Shown here one piece after another: positions 430-64,000 of a stretch of DNA of 64,000 bases. The stretch is taken from positions 77,872,001-77,936,000 of the forward strand of contig OX597825.1 of NCBI GenBank assembly GCA_951406725.2, read 5' to 3'. Source of the DNA: Octopus vulgaris. Lineage: Eukaryota. The translations under genes and the position numbers were made by a program. The notes under the pieces were generated by a model, which did no database searches, was not told where the DNA came from, and saw only the letters and a program-made list of their open reading frames with translations. Within the stretch, counting starts at the first letter, position 1, and each line of letters opens with the position of its first letter.

Positions 430-965
<536 letters not shown>

Positions 966-1426
966 ATTCCTACATACATACATACAGTTCAACACCGGCG
1001 GAAAACAATTGATGAAAGTGGGAATAGGAAGGAGTACCAGCGAGGTGGGTGATTCACCAAGAGAAGAAGGGGAGAGAATGAAAGGGAGAGAATAGAAAAG
1101 GGGAAGAGAAAGGGGGGAAGAAAAGAGTGAGAGAGAGACAGAAGGGCGATTATCCTGTGAGATAAGTAAGGAACTGGAAGAAATTTGATATTTTTTCGTA
1201 ATTGAAAATGTTGGAAGTAGAGAGTATTTGAGGAGCTGGCGGATATTTTTACATCTTTATTGAGAAAGATGAGCTTATAATAAATAAATGACATCGTATG
1301 CGTGTTTGTGTGTGTGTGAGTGTGTGTGTGTGTCAGTGTGTGTGAGTGTGTGTGTGAGTGTGTGTGTGTGTGTGTTGTATGTGTGCGTGTGTGTGTGAGT
1401 TATTATGTGTGTGTTTGTATGTGGTG

Positions 1427-1830
<404 letters not shown>

Positions 1831-1939
1831 CACATACACACACACACGGAGGTATTATGACAACCCTCCCTGGTTATGATAGAGTCTCGTCGATGGAAGT
1901 CCGCCTTCTCCCGTCCAATGATATTTTCATTATATACAC

Positions 1940-2410
1940 GTCATTATTCAAATATATTTCAAGATTTCTTGTCAATAGAGAAAAGGCCGGTTTCCCACCT
2001 AGAGCCATTGGAATTTCAACATTAACAACAGTTTATTTTTGTATATATGTATGTATACGTACATATTTGTATGTTTTTCTATATATGTCTTCTCATACAT
2101 ATACTTCAATATCTATACACGCTCGTCTATACTTAAATGATAAACTTCTGGAAAGTTTTACAGATTTTTACAGTTCCAGCGATGGATTGGATCTATAGTC
2201 TTCGAATAAGCTTTCTCCTTTCTGGTTTTGAGAAGCTTAATTTCTCAAGATTGGTATTTAGGGAGTGTGTTACATATTCCAGTACCCCATTAATTACAGG
2301 TATAAACCTGAACTTGTAATCTGTATAGAATAACTGCAGATTTCTGAATAGTTCAGTGTAGGTATTCTCTTTTTCACTGATCTTCAGCTTTATGTGAATA
2401 TCTGCTGGGA
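1940..2410 (-). mobile_element. 3' fragment of an RLE-type (R4-clade-like) non-LTR retrotransposon: endonuclease C-terminus plus 3' UTR
   Basis: Minus strand reads IFPADIHIKLKISEKENTYTELFRNLQLFYTDYKFRFIPVINGVLEYVTHSLNTNLEKLSFSKPERRKLIRRL*IQSIAGTVKICKTFQKFII*, fitting the EKxxKY...PIIxGALG...LQ...GT pattern of restriction-like endonuclease C-termini; next to a (TG)n run. Confidence 0.75.
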
Positions 2411-2433
2411 AGATACTTTTTATATCTGTAATG

Positions 2434-2482
<49 letters not shown>

Positions 2483-2589
2483 ATGTCTGTGTCACTGCAC
2501 ACAACACAGATTTTTAAAATCGTATCTACACAACAGTCTCGCGAAAGGGGATTTTCAAAACATCTACCAATATCTATATCGCCGTACAA

Positions 2590-2955
2590 TGTGAACCCTG
2601 CAAAGATGAAAGGCGAAGTTGACCTGGCGACATTCGAAATTAGAACGCAAAAGAGCCGAAAGGAAAACGGCTGAGTATTTTGTCTAGCAGGGTAACAGTT
2701 TTGCCAACTCGCCGCTTCAGTAATAATAATAATACTGATAACGATTTCAAATTCTGACACAAGGCTAGCAAGTTCGTAGGAAGGGGTAAGATCGATTACA
2801 CCGACTGGAGTATGCAACTGATTCTTATTTTATCGACCACGAAATGATAAAAGGCAAACCCGATTTCAGCGCTATTTGAACTCAGAACGTAATAACGAAC
2901 GAAATGCCGCTAAGCATTTTGCCCGGTGTGCTAACGATTCTGCCAGATCGCCACT
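2590..2955 (-). mobile_element. Two degenerate copies of tRNA-derived SINE family B (about 2590-2716 and 2745-2955)
   Basis: Reverse complements match the family B copy at 23463 (ggcggcgagctggcagaa...gagttcaaat...gcctttcatcc...gtcgataaaataag). Confidence 0.8.
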
Positions 2956-3135
2956 GGCGTCTCATCTTAACTGATTGAAAGTGTTATCATGTACATTGTT
3001 TTGTCTTGGTAAAAAAGGTGGGCTTCAGCAAATATTCTGCTCCGTTGTTTCATCGTGGCTGACAATATATCCGTTCCCGTTTCTTTTAACTCTTTAAACT
3101 CTTCATTATAATTTACACAATGTACATATATGTGC

Positions 3136-3237
<102 letters not shown>

Positions 3238-3342
3238 CATACATACATGCATACATACATACATGAACTCATAGAACCATATAATTGCATGATGAGACAA
3301 TGTGATATGTATATTGTATGTGTATGTCTGTACGTATATATG

Positions 3343-3389
<47 letters not shown>

Positions 3390-3612
3390 CTATACATATA
3401 TACACGCATAAAAGCACACTGACACATATAAATATCTATCTATCTATCTATGCATAAGTATATACATATATATGTTTATAAGTATATATATCTACATATA
3501 TATACATATAAACATACATATACATATGTATATTATTTATATATATATATATGCATATATATACATACGTATGTATGTAAGTATGTATGTATATGTATAA
3601 ATACACGCAAAT

Positions 3613-3670
<58 letters not shown>

Positions 3671-3987
3671 ATGTAGAGAGAGGCCTGTTCGTAAACAGCA
3701 GCAGCAGCTGAATAGGTGTAATAGGTTTGTCTCGGTGTAATAGGTGAGATTCCTGTTACCAGCAGAGAGGCATAGGAAGTAGGTACCGACTCAGCTAATT
3801 ATATGCAAGAATTGTTCTAAGAACCAATCCAACTTGAAATTTACTGTCAACACGCAAATAATGGGAAAGGAAACGGAGTATAAGAATGTATTATCTAAAG
3901 TTATGTATATATACATATATATATGTGTGTACTATATGTGTGTACATATATAAAGGATATATGCATATACGTATATAGAAATGTATA

Positions 3988-4062
<75 letters not shown>

Positions 4063-4085
4063 GTATTTATATATATGCATGTAAG

Positions 4086-4120
<35 letters not shown>

Positions 4121-4309
4121 ATATATATATAAAGTATATATGTATGTATGTGTGTGTGTATATGTGTGCATAATATATTTATATATGTATATGTATGTAT
4201 ATATGTATGTATATGTATATATATGTATATGTGTTTATATATATAAACATTTACATATGTATTATATAATATATGAACTTATAATTACATACGTGTATAA
4301 ATTTATATA

Positions 4310-4365
<56 letters not shown>

Positions 4366-4978
4366 TATGGCAAGGGATCATGTGTATACGGATATCTATA
4401 TCCATATATATGTATATGTATCGATATTTATCACATATGCGTTTCATTCATTTATGTTCATGTATATACATAGATATATACACATATATGTATGCATGGA
4501 TATATATACGTATACACACACACAAACAGACAAATATGGATGTATATGTGTAAATGTATATTTGCATCATTGTGTATATCTATCCATCAATTTCTCTCTC
4601 TCTCTCTCTCTCTCCCTCTCTCTCTGCTTATTCATATATGCATATGTGTCTGTGTCTATGTATGTGTGTATGGGTGTGTGTAAATATGCATGTATACTGT
4701 ATAGGTATGTACGTTTGTATGTATAGGCATTCGCACATATGGGAGGCATTAAAAGATGTCAGCATTGGTAAGTTGATAAAGCAGTCACGCACACGATATA
4801 CAATTATAGTGAGAACGTGTATGTACACACACACATATTCATACACACACACACACACACTCATGTATATATACATACATATATATGTGTGTGTATTATA
4901 TATATTATATAACATATATAATATACATATATATATATACATATATATAAGCATACATGCATACATATATTTATATAA

Positions 4979-5017
<39 letters not shown>

Positions 5018-5111
5018 CATGCATACATACATACACACACACATTCATACACACACACTCATGTATATATACATACATATATATGTGTGTGTGTATTATA
5101 TATATTATATA

Positions 5112-5176
<65 letters not shown>

Positions 5177-6127
5177 TATATAAGCATACATGCATACATA
5201 TATTTATATAAGTGTATATATATATATATATATATATATACATACATACACACATACATACATACATACATACATACATACATACATACATACATACACA
5301 CACACATAACTGCTTTTGTATATGAGTGAGTGTGTTTCAGTGGCTGAGGAATTTTGGAATTCTACAGAAATATAGTTTTCGCAACAAGACAATTAATTAT
5401 TCAACTTCATTCACTTGCCGAAGTGTTCTTGGTATTCCTGTTCCTCGTAGACTACCTTCAGTTATCTGTGTATATATATCTATGTTGGAATGCCAACTTC
5501 ACTCATATCAAGTTCACCCTGACGTGAAAACGATGTAGAAGAATTCATGTAAAGTAGGGCACCTGGTGTGAGGGCTTTTGTTGTCATGTTTTTGTGCCAA
5601 AAAATCCGAGACAGCATCCAAAAATAGGCCACCAACCCATTCGTACAGAGATTTCTTTTTCAAGCATATTCCTGTCTCTGATCTTCTGTTTCTGTATCTT
5701 CTCACTCTGATTTATTATACGGTTTCTATGATGGTCGATGCTTCTAAGAGCTGGTTGGTTTCGTGCTGTTTCTCTAAAGTTCCACTGGGTTCACTCTTTT
5801 CGTTTCGTTTATGCAAATTAGCAAAGGCATGTGTCCCGTTATTTTTGCATGTGCCTATTGTCTGCAGGAGGTAGGTTAACGTACCTACGGGTCTAAAGAT
5901 ACCCAGTGAGTCAGAATCGTGTATCCACAGATGACCAGTTGCCCTCTTGTTTTCAGATTGTATTTTCTTCAATGGCATTTCACTTTTAGAGATTTATGGA
6001 TATTTCAAGATTACCTCCCTTTTCATTGCCACTAAGAGAAATAATTTTTTGTGCGTTATTTTAAATACCTTTATAAGCCTTCATATTCACATGATTACAA
6101 ACATTTATATATATACACATTATATTT

Positions 6128-6189
<62 letters not shown>

Positions 6190-6319
6190 GAGTGTATTTT
6201 TGAGGAGAAGATTGCATTGTTTATACCATTTATTCTTTTGAATAGTATCAGTGGAATTTTCGAAACATGTGTCGAAAGTAAAAATATTTGATTACACCTG
6301 CGTTAACTCCATTTTTTTA

Positions 6320-6371
<52 letters not shown>

Positions 6372-6833
6372 CATATATATCAAAAAGATGTGTTATAATA
6401 TTATTCCACATATATTAAGAACAGTCATACCAACAATCCAACATACCTCCGTCATCAGCTGCCCCTCGGATATCATTATGGTTTCGATACCTATTCAATC
6501 CAGTGATGTCAAAACCACAACTTCCAAACACATTTACCCTATCTACAACTGTATCGGTAAATAAATTCAATAAGTAGATTACAACCAACTCCTAAATACG
6601 TAACTAAACAGCGACCAATCCATTAAGTCGTACAAAAATTATAATCCCTACCGTCTTCCATAGTATAATATAAAAGTGAAAGCTTAATAACCACATTCAT
6701 TCAATCAATCTATTTATTTTAACTTTAATAAAACTACAACAAAGAAACATATGAACCAATGTACATCGTATCGGTATTAATAGTAAACTGCAATAACTAA
6801 AGTATATACTAAATCGCGATCAATCTTTAAGTC

Positions 6834-7020
6834 GTGGGCATGGCTGTGTGGTTAGGGAGCTTGCTTCGGGTTCAGTCCCACTGCGTGGCACTTTGGGTAG
6901 GTGTCTTCCGCTATAGCCCCGAGTCGACCGAAGCTTTGTGATTGAATTCGGTAGGTGGAAGTTACTGCCGTGTGTGTATGTGTGCGTATAGCTGCTCAGT
7001 GCCTATCTCTCTCTCTCTCT

Positions 7021-7065
<45 letters not shown>

Positions 7066-7127
7066 TGGATACACACACACACTCTTTCAACGGCGGTGCA
7101 TCAGCATGGCCGCAGCTCTGAGCTGAA
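6834..7127 (+). mobile_element. SINE family A, internally deleted copy
   Basis: tggctgtgtggtt...gggttcagtcccactgcgtggcactttggg head and cagcatggccgcag 3' part, as in the full copies. Confidence 0.8.
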
Positions 7128-7607
7128 AAAAAAATGTCAATGCGAATAATAATCCTACTAATCTTCCATAGTTACTGCTATGATAAAAGTTAAAGCTTTA
7201 TATAAATCTCTCCAAAACAAAACAAACAGGATTTAAATTAATTTAACTGATAACATAATAATTATGAGTGAAATACATTATTTCGTCATTTGAAAGTTAA
7301 TAATAAAACAATACATACTCATTAATATATCACCACTGTAAGCTATAATATTAAATTACCAGTAACTAATTGAAACATTGAATCTTATTCAATAGAAACT
7401 ATATTATCATAAAACCTTGCTATGTTTAAAGCTAATTAAAACTGTTTAAAAGATAACATAACTACAAGTATTAACACTTACATGTTTTATAAGACACGCG
7501 GTTCCATCACCAAGAATTTGAAGGACCGACTTAAATATTGATGACGTAGTGCGTAATCGCTACTTCCTCAATTGTCTCAAACAATATTGGTGACGTAGTA
7601 AGCAAAT

Positions 7608-7760
7608 ATTGGGTTGTCTGGAAAGTTCATGACGATTTATTGTAGCTTACCTTTCGTCTTATTTTAGAACATTGTTGGGTCCAGAAAATAGGATTTGACT
7701 ACACCTCCATTCAGAGCACAGTTTAAGCTATCTTTTTGAGGAAGAAGGTTTTGCTTTAGT
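7608..7760 (+). mobile_element. Mariner-type transposon terminal fragment
   Basis: TA followed by ttgggttgtctggaaagttcatgacgatt resembles mariner TIRs; no partner end seen. Confidence 0.45.
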
Positions 7761-8365
7761 TGTATGTATTGGTATGTATTATAAGAAACCGTTCTTTCTC
7801 GAATATTTTACATAATTCAAACTATACAAGTTAATATGAGAAAACAAAACAGGAATTTTGAAAGAAGTTTCTATAAAACTAGTTTACAAACATGAAATGG
7901 CTATGGGGGTCCACCAAGAATAAAATAGTAATCAAAGGGTCCAGGGATAAAATATGCTTGAGAACCCCTACCCTAACCACTAAAGAACGCTCCTTCACTG
8001 CGATGTTAAAGCAGGGTTGTAATTTAATTTCGGTAACACTGGGGAGACAAAGAGAATTCTACGATCATGTAATCATCGAAATATATAAAGTTGTTGCGTT
8101 TATTTCACTCCGAGTCACGTCTGACCGTTAAACCACGTCTACGTGAGACCAACCAAGGATTTGGTGAAAGGTCTTGCAAACAAGACAATCTTTCATTTAT
8201 TTCTTTATTTTTTCACTAATATCGGTACAAAGATTGAAATTTGAATCGATTACATCGATACAAACACTCAACTGGAACTTATTTCATCGATTCCGAAAGG
8301 ATCAAAGGCAAAGTCGATTTCGGCGTTCGGCAGAATTTGAACTAAGAGCATACAGCCAGAAGAAA

Positions 8366-8578
8366 TACTCTTTTTACTCTTTCACTTGTTTCAGTCATTT
8401 TGACTGCGGCCATGCTGGAGCACCGCCTTTAGTCGAGCAAATCGACCCCGGGACTTATTCTTTGTAAGCCTAGTACTTATTCTATCAGTCTCTTTTGCCG
8501 AACCGCTAAGTGACGGGGACGTAAACACACCAGCATCGGTTGTCAAGCAATGCTAGGGGGACAAACACAGACACACAA

Positions 8579-8623
<45 letters not shown>

Positions 8624-8780
8624 CGACAGGCTTCTTTCAGTTTCCGTCTACCAAATCCACTCACAAAGCATTGGTTGGCCCGTGGCTATAGCAGAAGACA
8701 CTTGCCCAAGTTGCAACGCAGTGGGACTGAACCTGGAACCATGTGGTTGGTTAGCAAGCTACTTACCACACAGCCACTCC
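8366..8780 (-). mobile_element. SINE family A, near full length, nested inside a family B SINE (about 8250-8365 plus 8800-8830)
   Basis: Minus strand has A-box-like tggctgtgtgg, B-box-like ggttcagtccc, internal (TA)(TG) microsatellite, cagcatggccgcagtcaaaatgactgaaacaag and an (aaagagt)-type tail. Confidence 0.9.
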
Positions 8781-8985
8781 ACATGCCCCTTAATTTGTAA
8801 TCAAACGCGTTAGCGATTCTGCCAGTTCTCTTTCTTATATACCCTACACATGTAATGTGTTCATATTTTAGGGTATCTGGGTGTCGGGTGCTACTTTTGT
8901 GCTAGACAGGTTCGGGAAACCACGTGAAAATATTTTTTTATGGCTCATGAAACGAGGATCGTGTTACTTCATGGTGTTCTATTTG

Positions 8986-9425
8986 CAGTGGCGGACTGGA
9001 TCTGAAAATATTGGTTGCCAGGAGACTTATGAGGCCCACCCTTAACTACAAAGGGGCCCACCCGCAACTACAATGCTATCATTTAATTTTTTTTTTTTTT
9101 TTTTTTGTTAAAGTTTTTTTTTTTCAACTGTCTACAAACACAGTCAGGCTGAAATAATTAATGCATTCTTCCAGGAGTGAATAAAAAATTCTCAAACTTG
9201 CGGGGATTGGTCCCTTAGATAATGTTGTGAGGACGCTCCCAGACAATGAAGTAGGCTAGCCCAATACGTAGATATAGAGGGAGAAATCTAGACGTCGGGA
9301 TTTGAGTAGCGGTCATCGGAACGTGCGATATAACAGATACTGACATGGGCCCCATATATGGATTCTAATGGCGCAGGAGCCTACTTGCTATCGGGTAAGC
9401 TGGCAACCTGGCCAGTCTACCACTG
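8986..9425. mobile_element. hAT-type MITE
   Basis: TIRs cagtggcggactgg / ccagtctaccactg (12 of 14 match); degenerate 8-bp TSD tctatttg / cctattgc. Confidence 0.7.
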
Positions 9426-9951
9426 CCTATTGCTAAAGTAAATCCGTAAGATCCCGTGAATTCTGAGCTGTCTCAACCAATGAAATAAGCAGCTAAACGG
9501 TCATGATATAGTGACACAGCTTGCTTCCATGCTGCGAGATTATTGAGCGTATATCCTGCAGTTAAACCAACAGTTATTCTCGGACTAACCAGGATTTACA
9601 CAATGTCATATTAAATTTATTGCACAGATTATATACGCTATAGAATATAATGGTTGTCGTTTTTACACGCTAAGCCACTTTTCTATGTAAGTACTTAAGA
9701 TATATATATGTGTGTGTGTGTGTTTGTGTTATGTATATATACATTATATATATGTATACATACACATATATATAAATCACACGCACACACAAACACACGC
9801 ACACTGACACAGATGTGTATGCGTGCAAGCATGTCTGTGTGTGTATGTGTGTATGCGCGTGAGAGAGAGAGAGAGAGAGAGAGGGAGTGAGTATGTGTGT
9901 TGGTGTAAAAATTCTAATGATTCTTCGTCGATAATTGATGAGGGGTATATT

Positions 9952-9995
<44 letters not shown>

Positions 9996-10609
9996 AGTAA
10001 TGTTGATGAAGACGATGATGATGCGGAAGATGATGATGATGATGATGACAGTGATGACGATGATGGTGAGAAAGTGGAAGAGGAGGAGTATGAGCAGGAT
10101 ATTGAAGACGTATCTAGAAATCTAGACTTAAAAGCAACATCCGACCTAAACATGAGGGAAAAAAACGAAATAGATGCGTAATTTGAGACCAGCTGGAGTC
10201 GCAAGTACCTTCAATGTTTTCAAAACACTCCTCTTCAATTGACTTCAGTATTACTTCGGCTCTGCCTCTGATGTTTCCCACCACCACCTCCACCAACCGC
10301 GATCCCTACAGCCCTTTAAACAGACCACCCGTATAAACAGTGTTCCTTTTGCTACCCAGCTAACAAACGCGGTAGCACACCTGGTGTAATAAGAATTTTA
10401 CAACAGTGTAAACACGTAAGACGCCTCTTAACGCCCACGTTTTGTTTCCCTGTCTCAAAGTCGTATGTATGTATTTATGTATGTATTTAGTATGTATGTA
10501 TGTATGTATATATTTATAATGTCTATATATTATATATATATCGTGTGTATATATATATAAATATATGTATGTATATATGTATGTGTGTATGTATGTATGT
10601 ATATGTGTG

Positions 10610-10682
<73 letters not shown>

Positions 10683-10789
10683 CAGAGTAAAAAAGAGACA
10701 GAGACCGGCAGAAAAAAGGTAAAATGTCCTTCGCATTTCAAAACTATGTAAATATTTTTTTTTAATATTTCATTTAATTTTTCTACGAT

Positions 10790-10896
10790 TTAATTGTTTT
10801 TCATACTTTACTCTAAGTTGAAAAATTCGCATAGTCTGAAACTAGTACTAAAATGTTCTTCATGCTAAAATTATTTTTGCATTTTCTACTTTGTCT

Positions 10897-10903
<7 letters not shown>
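10790..10903 (+). mobile_element. Solo Penelope-like pLTR remnant with degenerate U3/A8 hammerhead (10816-10849)
   Basis: ag-TTGAAAA-...-GAAA-CTAG-TA-ct followed by aaaattatttttgcattttctac, homologous to the pLTR at 17111-17210; ends in (TA)n. Confidence 0.7.
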
Positions 10904-10959
<56 letters not shown>

Positions 10960-10961
<2 letters not shown>

Positions 10962-11630
10962 AGGCGTATAAGGTATTTGAGGACATACCTTTTTGTGCCA
11001 TAGGTGCATTTTTTGCTAACTCTGTTTCGGAAAATAATAATGGCAGAACCTCAGCTTATTGTGGTTATAAAGGCTGAGCATAGCGATTTAGAAATATCTC
11101 GATTTTTAAAGTTGTCAGATCATTCGTATACAAAGTTTGTAAGGAGCTAGAGACTAAAGATGAAAACATATCACCAGTATCAAAGTATAAAAAGCATTCT
11201 AAATACTCTGAAATCACCAGAACACCTGGATTTATCCAGCAAGTTCATCAGACCATTGATTAAAATCCCAGAAAGTTCATGAGGTCAATTGCAAAAGATC
11301 TCCATGTGTCAGAAGGAACAGTCAGAAATGTTGTCCACGAAGACATCAGATATAAATCTTATATGATAAGGAAAGGTCACTTTGTCAGAAAGAGCAAAAG
11401 AAAATCACTACATCAGTTCTTAAAGGTTATTAAACAAACTGATAAATCGAGCAGAATATTTGATTTGGTTTTTCTCAAACGAGAAAAACTTCGACCAAGA
11501 TCAAAAAGTTAGCAGAAGAAATGACAGATGATTATATGCAGACCCTTCTGAAGTTCCAAGTGTTATGCATAATACAAAATTTCCTGCAACTGTCATGGTT
11601 TTAGGGATTGACAGCAATGAAAGACATTAT
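10960..11630 (+). mobile_element. Tc1/mariner superfamily (maT/DD37D-like) transposase pseudogene, 3'-truncated
   Basis: MRSIAKDLHVSEGTVRNVVHEDIRYKSY helix-turn-helix; after a frameshift, WFFSNEKNFDQDQKVSRRNDR...KFPATVMVLG (FSDEK/NDR/VMV motifs); stops and frameshifts; starts after a TA run. Confidence 0.85.
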
Positions 11631-11844
11631 AGAAAAGAAGGTTTATCTTCATCCCTGTAGTCTGTTTTGATAAATAAAGTTATCTGTTATTATTATTGTA
11701 TATCTTTACACGCATACAGACATATATACGTGCACATATTTATGCCTGTGTTTATGTATACAGACATATGTGAAGATTAACAAACAGATGAAAGAGGGAC
11801 AGGCGGACAGATACACAGACAGACAGACAGATGGATATATATGT

Positions 11845-11891
<47 letters not shown>

Positions 11892-11892
11892 T

Positions 11893-11978
<86 letters not shown>

Positions 11979-11979
11979 T

Positions 11980-12060
<81 letters not shown>

Positions 12061-12646
12061 GCAAACACGCAACAGACACAGACAAACATACAGACATACA
12101 CAAACACACACATATTCGTCAATCTTCAAAATAAGATGTTAAGAAGGGGCAGAAATTCCTAAACATCCGTTTCTTACAAGAGCCTGAAACAGAGAGATCA
12201 CGTGTTGTTTTCTTAACGCAACAGACACACAAGCTGTTCACTTTTGCTAACTTTTGTCAGCCATTTTTCTCTATAACAACTCTAGAAAAGCAGATTGTTT
12301 ATTTTTCTTCATATATTTATAATTCCCTTTTATTTTCTTTAACAAATATGGTGACCTTTTAACACAATAATCCATCGTACAAATCAACTTCCAGCAAACA
12401 TGGCGGAAAAATTATATATATATAAGACTGTCCTAGAATCGTAGGATTTCTATGAACAGTTCTAGGAAGTGTCCCTCTTTTGGAGAATTTCTTTGTTATA
12501 ATCCGTTGTTTTCATTGTTTACACGACTTTCGTGTAACCCCATATTCTATTTGTCCCGTGCCATCGACAGTGTTTTCTTAGTGTAAATCCTTTGTAGTTA
12601 ATAAATAAATAATAATAATAATTATTATTATTATTATTATTATTAT

Positions 12647-12967
12647 TCAGTAGTTTTATTTTTATAGCGTGCTTTCACTTCACTACCGAGCGCAGCTCTG
12701 TGTGCCTTGGGTATGTGCTGTGATTTGTTGTGATGCTCTGATGGTTATTGTATGGAAAGTGTTCTGCGTAGGATGTGTGCAGTGCCTAGTAGTGCAATTT
12801 TCTGTATGTTATATGTGTTTGTAAGTCCTGGTGTTTTTGTTATGTATTTGTCTGAATATTTTTTTATCATGCCTAATGCACCTACTATGATAGGAATTGT
12901 TTCTGTTTTCAGGTTCCACATTCTAGTTACCTCTATTTCCAGGTCTTTGTATTTTGAGAGTTTCTCC

Positions 12968-16117: not shown

Positions 16118-16314
16118 TCTTTTTCTTGCATTTGTTTCAGTCATTTGACTGCGGCCATGGTGGAGCACTGCCTTTAGTCGAGCAAATCGACCCCAAAACT
16201 TACTTTTTTGTAAGCCTAGTACTTGTTCTATCGGTCTTTTCTGCAGAACCACTAAGTTACTGGAACAAAAACACACCACCATCGGTTGTCAAACGATGTT
16301 TGGGGACAAACACA

Positions 16315-16395
<81 letters not shown>

Positions 16396-16491
16396 GACGG
16401 GCTTCTTTCAGTTTCCCTCTACCAAATCCACTCACAAGGCTTTGGTCGGCCCGAGGCTACAGTAGAAGACATTTGCCCAAAGTGCCACGCA
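16118..16491 (-). mobile_element. SINE family A, 5'-truncated
   Basis: Same body and internal (TA)n as 8366-8780. Confidence 0.88.
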
Positions 16492-17061: not shown

Positions 17062-17167
17062 GGTGTGTGTGTGTGTGTATAAGGGTGGAAAGGAACACAC
17101 GAGTTGATATATATGAAAAAACAAGTCAAAAATAGAAAATGCTAAGATAATTTTATAGTGAATCTTT

Positions 17168-17205
17168 CAGTACCGGTTTCGGTCATTTTGAGACCTTTTC
17201 AACTG
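17168..17205 (-). ncRNA. Minimal type I hammerhead ribozyme in the pLTR, U3-A8 compensatory core
   Basis: Minus strand CAG-TTGAAAA-GGTC(tcaaaat)GACC-GAAA-CCGG-TA-CTG; stem III palindrome ACCGGT. Confidence 0.8.
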
Positions 17206-17866
17206 TAACGATTAAATAATTGAATTTAGAAAAATTAGAAGAAAAGTTTTTTTAAAGGGAATATTTCTATAGTAGTGTTCAGATATAAGTGGCATTCTGC
17301 CTTTCTCTGACTCCCTTGTTTGCACTTGTGTGTTCGAGGTCGTTGTGAGTTCTTGGTAGGGTAGGAGAAGCAGAAGGCTGATGTGGAGAGGGGGTGGGGA
17401 AATCTGGGAATGCCTTGATGGTCGTATTTTGAATGGTCAGTGGCGGACAGCAGTCGCAGTTCAATTCAGGAATTGTTTATGGAATTTGCGTAGGCGTTAT
17501 ACTGAAAGGCATTAGTGACATGGTTAAGGGGTAGAAGGTGGAGAAGTAGAAGAAGAAGAAGATGACGATGTTGATGATGATGATGATGAGGATGAAGAAG
17601 AAGAAGAAGAAGAAGAAGAAGAAGAAGAAGAAGAAGAAGAAGAAGGAGAAGGAGAAGATGATGATGATGATGGTGGTGATGATGATGACGACGATGATGA
17701 TGATAATGATGATGATGAAGAAGAAGAGGAAGAAGAAGAAAAAAACAGAGAAGGGAGAATATGAATGGGTGAAAGTATAGCTGTGATGGGGCTGATTAGT
17801 AATGGATTCTATGGAATGTAATATTTGTGTGTGTATATATTTCTTTTATTCTAAAGTTGAGGTATA

Positions 17867-18964
17867 TTAATTGTTTGTCGTAGACCCGTTAAGAAGTGGC
17901 CTGTATTTTGTAATAAAGAGATTTTCTTTACTTATTCGTTGTCTCGAGGTTGTATCGTCCCTAAATTGGTAGAGGGGGAAAATCCTGAAGTTTGGTGTTT
18001 TTTTGTTGGCGCAAGTATCTATGTGTTGGCTAAAAGCTATTTTTCTGTTTTGGGGAATTTTTATCTGGGATCTGTGCAGGGCCATTCGTTTACGCAAACC
18101 ATTTTTTGTTTGGCCTATGTACTGCTCTTGACACCCGGAGCAGGTTAGTGAGTATATTAGGTTCTCCGAAGCACATGTGAAGTTGCTTTTCACTGTAAAC
18201 CGTTGTCCCTGTTTGAAGGAGAACTCTGATCCCTCAATTAGATAGTCGCATATCTCGCAATTGGGTCTTCCACATTTTTTTACTGTCGGCTTCTGTGTTG
18301 AAGAGTGAATTCGGGCTTGTGTTAGGAGACTTTTCATGGATCTAGGCTGTCTTTTGCTTTTTATGATCGTGTGTGTTTGGAGGATTGTGTTCATTCTGTG
18401 GTCTTTTTTTAGGAGGGCTATGTTGTGGAGGATGCTGCCGAAGGCTTCGTTATTGAGAGGGTTGTGTGTGGAGATGTATGGTAAGGCTTTTTGGTTGTAA
18501 GTTTTTCTTTGATTTTGGGATGTCTCAGTTCCTTGATGTTAAGTTGAAGGGCACGTTGAATGCACTTGTCAATAAGTGAAGGTGGATAGTTCCTGGTGAT
18601 AAGGGTATCTTTTAGTTCTTGTAGTCGTGTGTCTCTGGTGTTTGCGTTAGAGACTATAGTGCATATCCTTTTTGCTAGATTGAAGGGGATATTCATCCTG
18701 GTGTGTCTGGGGTGGCATGAATTGAATGGAAGATATTGCTTAGAGTCTGTAGGCTTATAGTATATGTCTGTTTCTATTATATTATTAGCTTTCTTAATGA
18801 GGATATCGAGGAAGGGGAGTTGTTGCTGGCTATATTCCATCGTGAATTGGATGTTTACGTCCAGTCCGTTTAAAATTTCCTGGAATTCTATGAGTTTTTC
18901 TATATTTTTATGCCAAAGAATGAAACAGTCATCTAGATATCTCTTCCAGTTGTTTTCTATGTAG
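17867..18964 (-). pseudogene. PLE polyprotein C-terminal half: RT (motif C and thumb), CxxC linker, GIY-YIG endonuclease; one frameshift near 18490
   Basis: WKRYLDDCF, QFTME, LPFLDI, YYKPTDSKQYLPFNSCHP, RNYP; shifted frame LPYISTHNP...KRQPRS...CGRPNCEIC...NLIYSLTCSGCQEQYIGQT...LRKRMALH...ENLFI...PLLN. Confidence 0.93.
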
Positions 18965-19032
18965 ATGACCGAAACCGGTACTGAAAGATTCACTATAAAA
19001 TTATCTTAGCATTTTCTATTTTTGACTTGTTT

Positions 19033-19095
<63 letters not shown>

Positions 19096-28576: not shown

Positions 28577-28610
<34 letters not shown>

Positions 28611-28788
28611 ATACATACGAGCTAATCCACCTATATAATTATATAAATATATGTATATTATATAAATACATTATATATGTATATATAATTATATATATAT
28701 ACAAGCTAATCCACCTATATAATTATATAAATATATCGTTTTTCGTTTTTCTTGTTTCAGCTCAGAGCTGCAGCCATGTATATATATT

Positions 28789-28879
<91 letters not shown>

Positions 28880-28928
28880 TGAGGGAGATAAATTGATATT
28901 AATTTTAATATCAATTTAAAACCAGTAG

Positions 28929-29021
28929 TCCAGCATACAAAAAATCTGAGAAGTCAGAGAAAATTCTAATATATGTGTATATTGGCAAGGCTTACTGCTA
29001 GGAAGTAGGCCGTATGCTAGA
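28929..29021 (+). ncRNA. Candidate structured RNA: closing helix, hairpin and H-type pseudoknot, in a (TA)n-flanked island (28874-29142)
   Basis: AGCATAC/GTATGCT; TCTGA(gaag)TCAGA; TTGGCA/TGCTAG crossed with GGCTTAC/GTAGGCC; folded by eye from a single copy. Confidence 0.45.
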
Positions 29022-29504
29022 AACAGATCATCAACGATCAAACTACAAGGAAATTCTCTAGAAGAAAAATTCAGCGAACACCAGAACCAAATTTGGCGGG
29101 CAGGACAGATGAAAATTTATATAAAAAACAGAATTAAATGCATATATATATATATATATAATATAACTAATACATACATATGCACCCTAACACAACTCAC
29201 ACACACACGAAAACACGCAAATACCGCAGACGCACTCTCGCGGTAATCATACTCATATTTATGCGAAGCTTTTTGAAATTTGAATAATAATGGATTTTTT
29301 TTGTTTTTTATTTTTTTAGCGAAGCATTGAGTGAAAGCCAGAAAATGAAGGGGAGCAAAGTGTTTTGTTCATATCCTCACCCCGAGTATTTGCTGGTATT
29401 TTACTTTATTTCATTGATTCGGCAGGATGAAAATCTAGGTTGATCCTAAAGGAACGAGATTCGAACCATCAAAATAAAGAATAGAAGAAATAAAGGTTTC
29501 ACAT

Positions 29505-33890: not shown

Positions 33891-34850
33891 ATTGAAAACT
33901 CACAGTTCATTTTACTGGGTATCATGGAAAGTGTCAACTGTCCAAAGCCAGCAAAATAAGGTGACACTTGTTTACTGGTCATGCTTCAAGAACCCTGCGA
34001 AGAATTCTTGCAGTTCCAAGCAATGCTGATTTTTGCAGGTGTTCTACATTCACACTTGTACCGATTTTTTTCAGCCATGCTGGTAGTTGAGTGCTGATAC
34101 TTCCAAGTGCATCAATTACTATTGGTATTACGTCTACTCTCTTCATTGACCATTGTATTTCCCATTTTATATCGTAATAATTGTCTATTTTTTCTTCGTT
34201 CACATCGATCCTGTTGTCACCGGGGCATGCTACGTCGGTAATCATACATGTTCTTTCTTTTTATTCTCCACAGCAAGATCCAGCTTCCGATGTCTGGTTG
34301 GGTTATCGCAATGGATCATTGCATCGCACAGGATTTTGCAATTCTCATTTTCGGTGACTCTTTCTGGGGTTTGCTGATACCACATCCTTGCTCTTTGTAA
34401 GCCGTGATTTCCTCAGAGCTTCCAATGGATTATTCTTGCCATATTGTCATGGCGTCGTTTGTACCAATTTCGGGCATTCGCTAACAATGTGCCATATCGT
34501 TTCGCCCCTCTCACCACATATTCTGCATTTGTCGCTATCGGTAGTGTTGTCTATTCTGCACTTCATATAGTTGATCCTTAAAGCTTGTTCCTGAGCTGCA
34601 CACATGAGTTCTTCTCTCTCTATCTTTATGTCACTCTTTCTCATCTATAGCCACCGGTCCTCTGTATCTGTCTTGGAGTTCACGTCGCCTGCAAACTGAC
34701 CGCACATTTTCTTTTCCTTCCATGCTTTTTCTTTTCTTTTATTTTTTTTTATTTTGTTCATTTCTTGTTTAAGTTTTTCTTTAGTTACACAATTTTCAGT
34801 GTTGATGACGCCGGCCTTCTTCGTGCGATTCAACAGTGACTCCACGGCAT
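33891..34850 (-). mobile_element. R4/Dong-like LINE 3' fragment (zinc knuckle plus RLE), pseudogenised
   Basis: AAQEQALR, CRICGERGETIWHIVSEC (CCHC), TDVACPGD...EKIDNY...IPIVIDALG...LQKSALLGTARILRRVL; several stops and frameshifts. Confidence 0.92.
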
Positions 34851-34882: not shown

Positions 34883-34964
34883 GGTAGCGTGGCTGAGTGG
34901 TCTAAGGCGCTAGTTTAAGACACTAGTCCCTTTGGAGGCGTGTGTTCGAATTCTACCGCTGCCA
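34883..34964 (+). tRNA. tRNA-Leu(AAG), probably a pseudogene
   Basis: GGTAGCG/CGCTGCC acceptor stem, anticodon arm CTAGT-TTAAGAC-ACTAG, long variable arm, TTCGAAT loop; T-stem GTGTG/TCTAC damaged (G53-C61 lost), A37, no T-run terminator. Confidence 0.85.
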
Positions 34965-36796: not shown

Positions 36797-37009
36797 TACT
36801 CTTTTACTTGTTTCAGTCATTTGACTGCGGCCATGCTGGAGCACCGCCTTTATTTATAGTCGCGCAAATCGACCCCAGAGCTTATTCTTTGTAAGCCCAG
36901 TACTTATTATAGCGGTCTCTTTTGCCGAACTGCTAAGTTACGGGGACGTAAACACACCAGCATCAAGCGATGCTGGGGGGGGACAAACAGACACACAAAC
37001 ATATACACA

Positions 37010-37091
<82 letters not shown>

Positions 37092-37260
37092 TATATACGA
37101 CGAGCTTCTTCCAGTTTCTGTCTACCAAACCCACTCACAAGGCTTTGGTCGGCCCGAGGCTATAGTAGAAGACACTTGCCCAAGGTGCCATGCAGTGGGA
37201 CTGAACCCGCGACCATGTGGCTGGTAGACAAACTACTTACCACACAGCCACTCCTGCGCC
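36797..37260 (-). mobile_element. SINE family A, full length
   Basis: From ggcgcaggagtggctgtgtgg to gaaacaagtaaaagag, with internal (TA)(TG). Confidence 0.92.
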
Positions 37261-37757
37261 TATGATCAAAATAATTTCAAGTATACGCGTCCAGTATTCT
37301 TAAGATGTCCAGCAAGCAGTTTCGGACTATATTACACGATGGATGTTATTTGAAGATAAGAGAAAAAGCAAAATTAATTCGGGGCAACACAAAGCAGTGT
37401 TGAACGAAATATAGGTGAGTGTAATCATATGTTTCATGTTGAAGTTCATTTATGAGGTTCATGTAGGGAAAGAGGAGAGGATGGAAAAAAAGAGAAAGGA
37501 TGACCGTTTGGAGAGAGGAGAGATAAGGGAGAAAGAAAGGAGAGAGAAAGAGAGAGAGAGAGAATGAGATTTGAAAATAAAAGAAGTAAGTTTAAGGAAG
37601 TGGTAGAGCAAAGAGCAAGGAGAGAATGAGGGAAAGTGAGAAGAGATAAAGGCAGGTTGAGAGGAAAGAGGATGAAGTGGACGGGAGATAGAGAAGAAGA
37701 AGAAGAAGAAGAAGAAGAAGAAGAACAACAACAACAACAACAAATAGAAAGGCAGAT

Positions 37758-40376: not shown

Positions 40377-40798
40377 CTCTTTACTCTTTACTCTCTCTTT
40401 TACTTGTTTCAGTCATTTGACTGCGGCCATGCTGGAGCACCGCCTTTAGTCGAGCAAATCGAACCCAGGACTTATTCTTTGTAAGCCTAGTACTTATTCT
40501 ATCGGTCTCTTTTGCCGAACCGCTAGATGACGGAGATATAAGCACACCAGCATCGGTTGTCAAGCGATGTTGGGGGGGACAAACACAGACACACAAACAT
40601 ACATACACACACACACATATATATATACATATATACGACAGGCTTATTTCAGTTTCCGTCTACCAAATCCATTCACAAGGCTTTGGTCAGCTCGAGGCTA
40701 TAGCAGAAGACACTCGCCCAAGGTGCCACGCAGTGGGACTGAACCCGGAACCATGTGGTTGGTAAGCCAGCTACTTACCACACAGCCACTCCCGCGCC
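40377..40798 (-). mobile_element. SINE family A, full length
   Basis: As 36797-37260. Confidence 0.92.
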
Positions 40799-41020
40799 TA
40801 TATATTTTTTTAATTTATTTTTATAATTTGTATATATTTATTTTATTATAAATGCAAAACAACACCATGTAGGAATCGACGTAAACTTAAATAATAAACC
40901 ACGATTCCATTGATTGCCATTCCTTTGACTGCCTCTTTGATTCCGGTTCATATTGATGAACCTAAGTTTTATCACCTGTTACGAGTCTGCGAAAGAAGGT
41001 GTTGTCTCTTTGACTTTGTA

Positions 41021-44180: not shown

Positions 44181-44408
44181 TACATGTATACATACTTATA
44201 TATACATATATATATATAGATGGGAATGGCAAGACAGCAACAGAATAAAGGAGACCTCGATATTATATAAACAATATCTAATAGCTATTAGAATGACCCT
44301 TACTTAGCGATCATTCTAATAGCTCTTTTGTCTTAATAACGGTCAGACACACAGTAATTTCACTTTGTTTTAACGGTCATTTTCATAGCATTTTTTTTTC
44401 GATGACCC

Positions 44409-44463
44409 GATAACTGAAGAGATGCCGGCGGGGGTTTCCGCCCCGACATCCGAAACTTTTATC
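44409..44463 (+). ncRNA. Hammerhead-like motif with long GC-rich stem II
   Basis: GATAA-CTGAAGA-GATGcCGGCGG(gggttt)CCGccCCGaCATC-c-GAAA-ctt-TTATC; stem III and cleavage site damaged. Confidence 0.5.
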
Positions 44464-44497
44464 ATGGCTACCGAATAACTGTCACATATATTTACAG

Positions 44498-54794: not shown

Positions 54795-54798
<4 letters not shown>

Positions 54799-55405
54799 TC
54801 TTGACTGACCAGTCCGTCGGGTGTCCATTTGACACCGCTGGTCACAGCACGCTGTCCACTCCCCGGTGGATCGCGCCTTCTTCATCCAAGTGATTCCAAT
54901 CGCCCTCCTAAAATCATAGCTCCACCGTAGTGGAGGCCTTCCCAGTGGTCGTTTCCGCTCGCGCGGGTACCACTAGTCAACTGCGTGGGTTCACCGATTA
55001 TCGGTGAGCCGGGCGACGTTACCAGCCCATTTAAACTTGCTGCGTGTATATTCTACGATGACATCCCTCACGCCGGATTTCTGTCTGATGACCTCGCTAC
55101 TGATGTGCTCTTTCAACGAGATTCCAAGCATTGACCTCTCCATGGCTCTTTGAGCCGTTATCAATCTCTGCTCTTCTCTCTTTGTGGTAGCCCATGTTTC
55201 CCTACCATATAACATTGCAGGTAGAACTGTACTGTTGATGAGTTTGGCGCAGGTGGTCCTGTCAAACCTTCCCTTGAGCACATCACTTATGCCATTGAAC
55301 GCCTTCCATCCGGCCCTTACTCTCCCCGAGATCTCCTTTTCGATATCTCGGCACATATTCACTTCCTGTCCCAGGTAGACATATTCCTTTACTTCCTCTA
55401 TTTCA
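54795..55405 (-). mobile_element. RTE-clade LINE 3' fragment ending in (TA)n
   Basis: IEEVKEYVYLGQ...EISGRVRAGWKAF...VLPAMLYGRETW...QRAMERSMLG...KWAGNVAR...R*T...KRPLGRPPLRW; two stops near the end. Confidence 0.92.
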
Positions 55406-56152
55406 GGAGGTAACGGAATAGATGTATGTGTGTGTGTGAGGGATTATGTAAAAACATATATAATAGTGTGTATATGTGTATATGTGGGTGTCTGAGCTAA
55501 AGTGTGCGTGTGTGCGCGTATTATGTATGCACGTATGTATGTATGTAATATATGTTTGCATGTATGTGTGCGAGTGTAAATGTATGTATTGTGTTTATGT
55601 TCGTCTTCTTGTGTACTTAGTGTTCTGTTACACTCGTGTGATTTGATGTGTATTTTATGTACATCGTACTCTATCCTATAGGTGTTGAGACATACTTGAT
55701 TACAATAGATACACACACACTCACACACACTCACACACATAGAAATACACACATACACATTTATAACTACATAAATCCCTACACACTCGCACACATACAG
55801 CCGAGGCGACCTATCCCTCACAAGCAACATATAGACATTTCCATAAACCCATCTGACTATGTTAACATCTCCAATGTCAACGCTTCGCTCTGCCAAAGTC
55901 AGATTCTTTCAATGCCGTAATCTCACTTTTCGACATCATTCCTCATTCATTCTTTATTTAACATCCAGAATATGGATTGTATTCACAATACATATCGAAG
56001 CCGGCACCTTGCAATACGCCTCGCTCCCATTAGTAGAATGTTTTATTTTATGGGAGGTGAGTGAAGGAACATATGCAAATATCGCAAATACGAATTGTGA
56101 GGGCGAAGAATAACGAAATAACGGAATAAACTTGCTATTCGGAGTTGTTATT

Positions 56153-56490: not shown

Positions 56491-57364
56491 CATACATGCA
56501 TACATACATACATACACACACATACTTACTTTCATAACTACATATATATCTTCTTTGTAAAAATCTGCGGATGAGCTCATAGAGTGTACGTATCGTCTTG
56601 TGTAACACATGCGGCAGTCTCTCAAGCGGGTAATTTCTTCAGGGGCAATAATTCAGTAGACAACAATTTATGTCTACAATATTCAATGAATTCACGCAAC
56701 GCAATATTCAAAAGTACATACAGACAACTGTCAACACATTATTGAACGGAGAAATGGTTTCAGTTGTTGACATCCAGATCGGATTATTACAAAAAAATGA
56801 GGGGAAATCGTTTCAGGTACAGGATAAACCAAAACCTACACAAACTGATAAGTTCACTTATTTATTGCACGGAATCCAAAAATCTTTGACACGATGTGTG
56901 AGATGCTCGCTGAAACTGCCCCACTTTCTTTCAATCATTAAATATCTATATGCGTTTATATTGAGTTCTACACCATGTTATTAAAATCGCATTGTCTCAG
57001 TGTTATATTGCATTTTAGCTTTAATTCTTTCGTTTTCCGTTTATTTAACATTCCGCGTTTTCTATATTCTACATTCTCAGCTTTTTCGCGTTTCTTCTCT
57101 TATTCAATGTTTTTAGTTCGTTATGATTTGTGGTTTGTGCCTGATGATTATGTCTGAGATAGTCCTCAACATATGAAACTATTAGTAGCACTTAAAGACA
57201 TGTATTGTGTCCTTTAATTAAATAATATTTATTTCTCATCAGATGGAGTACGTTTTTGTTGATGTTTCTATCACGGAACAGTACAGTGTATGTGTGTGTG
57301 TGTGTGTGTATGTGTGTGTTTGTGTGTGTTTGTCTGTATATGTGTGTGTATGCGTGTGTGTGAC

Positions 57365-57497
57365 GGCGCGTGGCTTAGTGGTTAGGGCATTCGACTCACA
57401 ATCGTAAGGTCGTGAGTTCAATTCCCGGCGACGCGTTATGTCCTTGAGCAAGACACTTAATTTCACGTTGCCCCAGTCCATTCGGCTGGCGAAAATG
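57365..57497 (+). mobile_element. SINE family C (tRNA-derived head), 3'-truncated
   Basis: A box tggcttagtgg, B box gagttcaattcc, then tgtccttgagcaagacactt; follows (TG)n. Confidence 0.8.
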
Positions 57498-63785: not shown

Positions 63786-64000
63786 GGTTCGTGGTTTAGT
63801 TGTTAGGGTATTCAGCTCAGGATCATAAGGCCTTGAGTTCAATTCCCGGCAATCCGTTGTATCCTGGAGCAAGACACTTTACTTCACGTTGCGGCAATCT
63901 ACCCAGCTTGCAAAACTGAGATGTACCTATATTTCAAAGGACCAGCCTTGTTACACTTTCTGTGTCTCGCTGAATCTCTCTGGGAGCTATGTGAAGGGTA
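63786..64000 (+). mobile_element. SINE family C copy (runs off the window)
   Basis: gtggtttagttgttagggtattc...gagttcaattcccggc...tcctggagcaagacacttt; follows (TG)n. Confidence 0.78.

What the first reader, a model, noticed from the sequence alone, without database searches (positions are those of the whole stretch)
28874..29142. Telomerase-RNA-like template/pseudoknot architecture with a microsatellite-like template, embedded in (TA)n
Seen on the + strand, in order: helix strand AGCATAC (28932-38); A run; hairpin TCTGA-gaag-TCAGA (28945-58); unpaired tract ending AATATATGTGTATA (28968-81); a compact H-type pseudoknot (S1 TTGGCA 28982-87 / TGCTAG 28996-29001, L1 = A, S2 GGCTTAC 28989-95 / GTAGGCC 29005-11, L3 = GAA, all Watson-Crick or G-U); then directly the closing strand GTATGCT (29012-18). 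Known: ciliate telomerase RNA has this order (helix I, boundary helix II, template, pseudoknot, helix I'), and PLE RTs are the closest retroelement relatives of TERT. Inference: this may be the RNA module of a mobile element whose RT reiteratively copies a TA/TG template, which would actively make microsatellite. The island sits between two (TA)n runs like the PLE islands here but has no hammerhead. Alternatives are a new ribozyme, an RT-recognition element, or a chance fold. Only one copy is visible.
Basis: partly seen in the sequence, partly recalled or inferred. Interest (0 to 1): 0.8.

Follow-up and report, generated by a model that had tools for sequence, protein, structure and literature searches.

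The report
Young hairpin-rich repeat in TA microsatellites
This 265-base stretch is one copy of a highly repeated, hairpin-rich sequence found in sequencing runs of three organisms, and it is likely a small passenger transposon that inserts into existing TA repeats rather than a telomerase-like RNA that makes them.

Summary
The letters and helices are at the stated places, and the island folds better than shuffles (z -4.5). It is not single-copy. Contigs of 4 runs from 3 organisms cover it at 556- to 12,725-fold the summed depth of the single-copy flank (not a copy number). The telomerase reading fails on the family data. The 'template' folds into its own hairpin (pairing 0.94) that takes four of the six 5' bases of S1. 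The middle S2 pair is nearly private to this copy: other contigs read C at 29007. Most copies extend hairpin III over S1's 3' strand, and some carry that segment flipped. Sister families share only the left 70-110 bp and replace the 'template'. No linked RT, ribozyme or coding remnant was found. Best reading (0.45): a young non-coding element, likely mobilised in trans by a (TA)n-targeting Penelope-like element; its size and near-terminal palindrome resemble a solo pLTR. The mobiliser is inferred, not shown. Rivals: LINE-dependent (0.2), DNA or rolling-circle (0.2), telomerase-like (0.04).

The parts
28779..28878 (.). left (TA)n run, likely the insertion target
   Evidence: TRF: 50 copies of TA. 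In run X2 a loose end before 28873 is a TA run, and 30/35/10/1 contigs run over an end of the stretch laid.
28873..29141 (+). one copy of a young high-copy non-coding repeat, about 265 bp; the left end is shown for the family, the right end only for this copy
   Evidence: 762/1099/347/10 contigs laid in X1/X2/X14/X3; summed depth 556-12,725 times the single-copy flank. One X3 contig spans 28872-29130 with 11 other letters and 2 gaps. The tool skipped 29131-29170.
28889..28918 (.). near-terminal palindrome, 14-bp perfect arms with 2 nt between; other copies carry a shorter palindrome here
   Evidence: I9; pairing 0.98; loose ends before 28905 in all 4 runs
28930..28938 (+). helix I 5' strand (7 bp in this copy, 9 bp with the majority T at 28931)
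   Evidence: C28931T in 52-71% of depth, C28938T in 8-10% (leaves a U-G pair)
28945..28958 (+). helix II: invariant 5-bp stem, variable 4-nt loop; the majority allele G28951 creates a CUGANGA box at 28946-52 without a usable hammerhead helix II
   Evidence: 3 of 3 variant sites lie in the loop (p 0.011, post hoc); the stem is kept in the loose ends of sister families; descriptor
28966..28985 (+).
   Evidence: loose ends behind 28937/28943/28944 in all 4 runs
28982..29001 (+). possible pseudoknot stem S1 (28982-87 with 28996-29001); both strands are claimed by competing hairpins
   Evidence: letters unchanged in laid contigs, so no covariation
   Evidence: A29007C in about 100% and A29003T in 52-70% of depth; loose ends before 29014 and behind 28992; energies
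29012..29020 (+). helix I 3' strand; its inner part differs in one subfamily
   Evidence: loose ends before 29014 in X1 and X14
29142..29160 (.). right (TA)n run

Best explanation
The island is one copy of a young, high-copy, non-coding repeat of about 265 bp lodged in (TA)n, and it is likely a non-autonomous element mobilised in trans by a (TA)n-targeting Penelope-like retroelement (PLE). Shown: many related copies in three organisms, a fixed left end at a TA run, kept hairpin stems, and a left 70-110 bp module (palindrome, helix I 5' strand, helix II) shared with sister families. Inferred: a + strand transcript folds into a four-way junction of plain hairpins; the shared left module is the cis signal, as in a solo pLTR; the partner's GIY-YIG endonuclease would nick an existing TA tract and its RT would copy the RNA once. 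The flanking (TA)n would then be target, later lengthened by ordinary slippage, not product.
For: High copy number and 80-100% identity spread (ratios). This copy has only 3 near-private substitutions (28988, 29007, 29063), so it is young. A C-terminal-EN PLE (RT, CX2-5CxxC linker as in Neptune, GIY-YIG PF01541) with a 72-nt inverted terminal repeat abuts (TA)n in the same window. Craig et al. (PMC8557442) list octopus Naiad and Hydra PLEs with (TA)n preference and one Naiad with an 'HHR half core' (supplement rows), and report non-autonomous Chlamys PLEs (passage). Arkhipova et al. (PMC3846280, passages) describe 193-218-bp pLTRs, 18- and 38-bp palindromes at pLTR 5' ends, solo pLTRs and mobilisation in trans. 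A purified PLE protein nicks AT-rich DNA (PMC11167929, passages). The fold favours +. No TIR, no tRNA or Rfam family, no coding remnant.
Against: No sequence link to any PLE was found. There is no similarity to the window's PLE. Ten of 12 short DNA words had 0 hits in the Craig supplement, and the other two had one hit each in unrelated GC-rich sequence (line breaks could hide a word). No hammerhead with helix II of 2 bp or more was found, although canonical ones are universal in Hydra and other C-terminal-EN PLEs; my descriptor is weak, recovering 1 of 3 candidate hammerheads in the window. No tandem or inverted joint was seen (table 5; joints across the TA runs could not be read). Across the core, variants are not significantly enriched at unpaired sites (5 of 9 versus 30 of 96, p 0.10). 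Flipped hairpins also fit DNA-level events. Transcription is not shown.
Confidence: 0.45

Rival explanations
1. A SINE-like element, or the 3' end of a longer LINE, read on the - strand. The left module would be a stem-loop 3' tail shared by several families and recognised by a microsatellite-targeting LINE RT (for example R4/Dong-type); the right end would be a 5' end or truncation point.
For: The left end is about 2-2.5 times deeper than the right half, and several families share it, including a 2,299-nt contig in X3 that begins with 28905-28944. Dong-R4 LINEs and unclassified SINEs are listed as recently active in O. vulgaris (PMC13282606, part 1 of 3). Shared stem-loop tails of SINE/LINE pairs are recalled, not from a call.
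Against: The fold favours + (z -2.2 versus -0.6 for majority alleles without the palindrome). Depth does not fall steadily from left to right. No tRNA-like head (these tools often miss SINE heads). No match to LINE fragments in the window.
Confidence: 0.2
2. A DNA-level non-autonomous element (Helitron/Helentron-like or another single-stranded-DNA or palindrome-ended transposon). Its hairpins would be transposase or Rep signals and it would insert at AT or TA.
For: A perfect 28-base palindrome lies about 10-15 nt from the left end. Hairpin III occurs in both orientations. Families share one terminus with different interiors. The same hairpins form with DNA parameters.
Against: No terminal inverted repeat beyond the TA runs. 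Neither strand shows 5'-TC and CTRR-3' ends (the motif is recalled). Three G-U pairs form only on +.
Confidence: 0.2
3. One reading: a telomerase-like template/pseudoknot RNA whose partner RT copies the AU/GU tract again and again and so makes the flanking microsatellite.
For: The order of helices resembles the ciliate core, and the full descriptor matched 2 of 2000 shuffles. Helix I and II are kept, and the tract and S1 letters show no variant at 5% or more in this subfamily. A shorter pseudoknot (4-bp S2) is still possible with majority alleles. One rare two-sided change exists at 28993/29007 (G-C versus U-A). The fold favours +. Telomerase-like repeat synthesis outside telomerase exists in bacterial DRT10 (PMC12632851, abstract).
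Against: The tract is predicted paired (0.94). The majority alleles break the middle S2 pair (-8.9 to -5.3 kcal/mol) and close over S1; the 6+7 pseudoknot pattern is lost. Flipped copies lack the S1 3' strand, and sister families replace the tract or all that follows 28983. The contig with the two-sided change also alters 28990-92 (inferred from equal depth values). Loops of 1 and 3 nt leave little room for a triple helix. The tract would give mixed TA/CA repeats, while the runs next to the island are nearly pure TA. No RT is linked.
Confidence: 0.04
4. A decayed protein-coding fragment (GIY-YIG region of a PLE) whose hairpins are incidental.
For: The best tblastn hit of PLE endonucleases lies on + at island nt 176-262 (E 0.002 for a 269-nt subject).
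Against: 51 of 500 shuffles score as high. No Pfam hit at its cut-off in 6 frames. phmmer over 1.84 billion representatives gave 1 hit, a tandem-repeat artefact. Two word-index searches found nothing.
Confidence: 0.06
5. A new self-cleaving ribozyme or a degraded hammerhead carried by a retrozyme-like RNA.
For: A CUGANGA box appears at 28946 with the majority allele; the variable sites match hammerhead positions 7 and 10.1; a GAAA follows within 4-6 nt.
Against: No Rfam family matches the island. Helix II would be 1 bp, against 7-8 bp with a G-C pair in PLE minimal hammerheads (PMC4209133, passages). CUGA is predicted paired (0.96). About 45% of depth has A at the G8-equivalent position.
Confidence: 0.05

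Closest known systems
PLE pseudo-LTRs, solo pLTRs and non-autonomous PLEs (Adineta Pen2/Pen3a; Chlamys MRC1; octopus Naiad and Hydra families)
   Same: Size near 200-270 bp, palindrome near one end, (TA)n setting, no coding capacity, at most a half hammerhead core.
   Different: No shared sequence with any PLE was found; no full hammerhead; no tandem or inverted arrangement seen; the partner is unknown.
Ciliate telomerase RNA template/pseudoknot core
   Same: Order on + in this copy: closing helix, small hairpin, AU-rich tract, potential H-type pseudoknot, closing strand.
   Different: Tract predicted paired; pseudoknot not kept across copies; no U-rich/A-rich loops for a triple helix; a dispersed repeat; no TERT or RT link.
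Non-LTR retrozymes (preprint 10.64898/2026.07.22.740005, part 1 of 5 read)
   Same: Short, non-coding, high-copy, likely PLE-dependent.
   Different: No type I hammerhead; no tandem array seen.
SINEs with LINE-derived stem-loop tails; Helentron-type non-autonomous elements (both recalled)
   Same: One terminal structured module shared by families with different interiors; microsatellite association.
   Different: No Pol III head, LINE partner, terminal inverted repeats or Helitron end motifs detected.
DRT10 ncRNA (PMC12632851, abstract only)
   Same: Precedent for telomerase-like repeat addition by a non-telomerase RT.
   Different: Bacterial defence system with an adjacent RT; nothing comparable is linked here.

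Membership tests
Telomerase RNA core (ciliate type) | single-stranded template of about 1.5-2 repeats with an alignment region | tested here: not met
   Predicted 8-bp hairpin, 0.33 unpaired; tract replaced in sister families; feature from PMC4993307 passages. Prediction only.
Telomerase RNA core (ciliate type) | template-adjacent boundary helix | tested here: inconclusive
   A hairpin with an invariant stem lies 9 nt upstream of the tract; a boundary function cannot be tested here.
Telomerase RNA core (ciliate type) | conserved, covarying pseudoknot | tested here: not met
   A29007C in about 100% of other depth, A29003T majority, flipped copies; 6+7 pattern lost, only a 4-bp S2 form remains; R-scape not run.
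Telomerase RNA core (ciliate type) | triple helix at the pseudoknot junction | tested here: not met
   L1 is 1 nt and L3 is 3 nt; judged from the sequence, not modelled in 3D.
Telomerase RNA core (ciliate type) | core-enclosing helix | tested here: met
   Pairing 0.97-1.0; extended by the majority allele; no two-sided change seen.
Telomerase RNA core (ciliate type) | partner RT and repeat addition activity | not testable with these tools
   No ORF or linked RT found.
Non-autonomous PLE / solo pLTR | dispersed copies in microsatellite or AT-rich targets | tested here: met
Non-autonomous PLE / solo pLTR | sequence shared with the pLTR or 3' end of an autonomous PLE | tested here: inconclusive
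   None with the window's PLE or by 12 short words in the Craig supplement (part 24 of 59 read by eye). Most octopus PLE families and the 2,299-nt contig could not be read.
Non-autonomous PLE / solo pLTR | hammerhead ribozyme in the pLTR (not required in Naiad/Chlamys) | tested here: not met
   only a CUGANGA half core with the majority allele
Non-autonomous PLE / solo pLTR | tandem or inverted pLTR arrangements | tested here: inconclusive
   No such joint in table 5, but repeats at both ends were skipped.
Non-LTR retrozyme | type I hammerhead in tandem units | tested here: not met
SINE | tRNA, 5S, 7SL or snRNA-derived Pol III head | tested here: inconclusive
   ARAGORN 0 genes; no Rfam match within the island up to E 10; decayed heads can escape both.
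SINE | 3' tail shared with a LINE | not testable with these tools
   No genome held; the letters of the 2,299-nt contig were not returned.
MITE / TIR transposon | terminal inverted repeats | tested here: not met
   Only TA-run arms pair the two ends.
Helitron | 5'-TC and 3'-CTRR ends with a subterminal hairpin (recalled) | tested here: not met
   A hairpin is present, the end motifs are absent on both strands; Helentron-type ends were not tested.

The most novel reading that the evidence does not exclude
The + strand four-way junction is the RNA of a new class of non-autonomous element. Its partner RT docks on the shared left module, opens the AU-rich hairpin by a switch to the short pseudoknot, and adds TA repeats reiteratively at each insertion, so that a mobile, telomerase-like RNA seeds microsatellites across a repeat-rich animal genome.
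Probability: 0.04. Interest if true: 0.9.

Novelty: new member of a known kind. Interest (0 to 1): 0.25.

Why it matters
As found, it is an unclassified, recently active repeat family in a microsatellite-rich, octopus-like genome. It may already sit unnamed in automated repeat libraries, which I could not search. Its use is practical: a short cis module shared by several families points to the recognition signal of the mobiliser, which is poorly known for (TA)n-targeting PLEs, and the 2,299-nt contig is a direct lead to the partner. Had the telomerase-like reading held, it would link mobile-element RTs to microsatellite birth and to the origin of telomerase RNA, but the family data argue against it.

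Tried and rejected
No whole genome is held, so copies could not be aligned and no covariance model or R-scape test was run; all family evidence comes from one lay of 4 of the 24 listed runs. No RNA holder is listed; X3 is RNA only by guess, so nothing is said about transcription. Rfam: 2 tRNA-like hits elsewhere in the window and none in the island. DNA pattern scans: metagenomes 0 and 1 match, the one being a chance 19-mer in an unrelated contig, L001; prokaryote genomes 0 and 0; viral contigs 0 and 0. Protein searches: Pfam in 6 frames gave 2 hits far below cut-off; phmmer gave 1 artefact; word-index searches found none; the GIY-YIG resemblance is at chance level. Octopus Naiad and Hydra consensus sequences: no match by short words or by eye; they could not be aligned by program, which leaves remote similarity open. 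Earlier findings of the scan: 3 look-ups, nothing returned. Eight literature searches listed no paper that, by title and abstract start, describes this family; this does not show that it is undescribed. The supplement of PMC13282606 was listed but not read, its repeat library is not held, and preprint supplements are closed.

Full report
Setting. The window is 35% GC, and about a third of it is tandem repeat (21,463 of 64,000 bases masked). It holds a 5'-truncated Penelope-like element (PLE) on the - strand at 17115-19036: RT thumb, CX2-5CxxC linker, GIY-YIG domain (PF01541, E 4.8e-5) and a 72-nt inverted terminal repeat, next to (TA)n. Of its 6 relatives found, the only named one is an Octopus vulgaris predicted protein (65% identical over 169 aa). 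I therefore treat the genome as octopus-like, which is an inference. No whole genome is held.

Observation. The island folds better than shuffles: z -4.46 for 28874-29142, and for the 111-nt core -3.54 on + and -2.84 on -. The predicted fold is a four-way junction closed by helix I with three plain hairpins. The supposed template is one of them (28966-28985, pairing 0.94), and it uses four of the six 5' bases of S1. ViennaRNA cannot score pseudoknots, so this shows a competitor of similar size (-3.8 kcal/mol, against -4.3 for S1 scored as a hairpin), not exclusion. A 6+7-bp pseudoknot pattern occurs in 105 of 2000 shuffles and at more than 30 other places in the masked window; the full architecture occurs in 2 of 2000, but that descriptor was fitted to this case. 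The island ranks 7th of 115 window segments in folding z.

It is a high-copy repeat. Of 24 runs listed, 20 hold part of the island; they come from 8 studies and 3 organism codes. I laid 4 of them (X1, X2, X14, X3) on 28872-29430 at 80% likeness: 762, 1099, 347 and 10 contigs fitted. Summed depth over the 14 island bins is 810-10,652 (X1), 720-12,725 (X2) and 556-6,538 (X14) times that of the single-copy flank at 29328-29430. The tool warns that this is no copy number, but three orders of magnitude with identities from 80 to 100% mean a large dispersed family. The left end is fixed at a TA run. The right end is shown only for this copy, because 29131-29170 was skipped. This copy has 3 near-private substitutions (28988, 29007, 29063), while the single-copy flank differs from the runs at 7-8 of about 260 letters, so the insertion is young.

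What the copies say about the structure (folds). Helix II keeps its 5-bp stem, and all 3 variant sites are in the 4-nt loop (p 0.011, post hoc). Helix I is lengthened by the majority T28931 and tolerates a C-G to U-G change; one subfamily differs at its inner 3' strand. With majority alleles S2 drops from -8.9 to -5.3 kcal/mol, T29003 (52-70%) adds three pairs that close over S1's 3' strand (pairing 0.97), and the 6+7 pattern disappears, though a 4-bp S2 form remains possible. In another subfamily this region is a 20-base near-palindrome that is seen in both orientations (5 contigs in X1 and 2 in X14 one way, 2 in X2 flipped); the flipped form lacks the S1 3' strand. However, loose ends behind 28937-28944 in all 4 runs continue with other AT-rich sequence, and 6 contigs in X1 leave the island behind 28983. 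One 2,299-nt contig in X3 begins with 28905-28944 and does not return. The only two-sided change (G28993-C29007 versus U-A) is rare in the DNA runs (36 of 19,159 in X1; 15 of 44,859 in X2; 83 of 3,411 in X14), and in X3 it comes with changes at 28990-92. Across the core, 5 of 9 variant sites are unpaired against 30 of 96 positions (p 0.10). Contigs are short, drop rare variants and give little phase, and 171 loose ends and 8 indel rows were not shown.

Strand and coding. Without the palindrome the + strand folds at z -3.2 (majority alleles -2.2) and the - strand at -0.6, owing in part to three G-U pairs. This mildly favours a + strand RNA; an A-rich strand may also inflate z (inference). No reading frame has a credible relative, and the faint GIY-YIG likeness is matched by 51 of 500 shuffles. 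Rfam and ARAGORN find nothing in the island. The majority G28951 gives a CUGANGA box, but with only a 1-bp helix II, against 7-8 bp in PLE minimal hammerheads (PMC4209133, passages).

Mechanism. The most likely reading (0.45) is a non-autonomous element moved by a (TA)n-targeting PLE. Shown: copy number, left end, kept stems, shared left module. Inferred: transcription, the partner, and the role of the module as cis signal. Support is by analogy. Octopus Naiad and Hydra PLEs prefer (TA)n, and one Naiad has only a half hammerhead core (PMC8557442: section 6, passages and supplement rows). Rotifer pLTRs are 193-218 bp, can start with 18-38-bp palindromes, occur solo and act in trans (PMC3846280, passages). 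A purified PLE protein nicks AT-rich DNA and starts reverse transcription inside a stem-loop (PMC11167929, passages). Against it, no sequence link to a PLE was found. A LINE-dependent element on the - strand (0.2) fits the deeper left end but not the strand bias of the fold. A DNA or rolling-circle element (0.2) fits the palindromes and the flip but lacks terminal inverted repeats and Helitron end motifs (motifs recalled).

Comparison with telomerase RNA. Defining features are a single-stranded template of 1.5-2 repeats, a boundary element, and a pseudoknot with a triple helix (PMC4993307, passages). Here only the enclosing helix is met; template, conserved pseudoknot and triple-helix loops are not, and no RT is linked. 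It is not a member of that family, and the evidence that it works like one is weak (0.04). The idea is not absurd, since DRT10 does this in bacteria (PMC12632851, abstract), but the parts that would matter are the least stable parts of this family.

Verdict. A real, young, structured repeat family with an unknown mobiliser; a new member of a known kind. I found no paper on it in eight searches (listings only), but the O. vulgaris annotation lists 58 recently active unknown families and 893 unclassified SINE families whose sequences I could not see (PMC13282606, part 1 of 3 and passages). Interest 0.25.

Noticed in passing
window 17115-19036 (-): 5'-truncated PLE with a Neptune-like linker: RT thumb and GIY-YIG in two frames, with a 72-nt perfect inverted terminal repeat (17115-17186 / 18965-19036) next to (TA)n.
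   Followed up: partly
window 44219-44497 (+): Another TA-bordered island of about 280 bp with a hammerhead-like core at 44414 and two alternative long inverted repeats (17 and 19 bp) sharing one arm; folding z -4.5.
   Followed up: partly
window about 27717 (-) and 19665 (-): Further hammerhead-like cores; only 27717 passed my descriptor, and Rfam called none.
   Followed up: no
run X3 record 26; X1 loose ends behind 28944 and 28983: Sister families share the island's left 70-110 bp and then diverge; one 2,299-nt contig starts there and may be a longer partner or a host transcript.
   Followed up: no
window 8377-8780, 16124-16491, 36799-37263, 40395-40801: Four copies of a two-part repeat (85-92% alike) with an internal (AC)n/(TA)n run, SINE-like by recall; 28755-28778 left of the island resembles a piece of such a repeat by eye.
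   Followed up: no
window 34883-34964 and 57364-57436 (+): Weak Rfam tRNA hits (37.6 and 31.1 bits); the second has a 78% copy at 63790-63918, so these are likely SINE heads.
   Followed up: no
window 2193-2513 (-), 33979-34260 (-), 54991-55443 (-), 11264-11512 (+), 61860-62363 (-): Open frames that look like LINE (R4/Dong-like, RTE-like) and mariner-like fragments; the names are recalled, not tested. 54797-55321 has the strongest folding z of the window.
   Followed up: no
window 28577-28736: An 84-bp tandem duplication inside the TA-rich tract left of the island.
   Followed up: no
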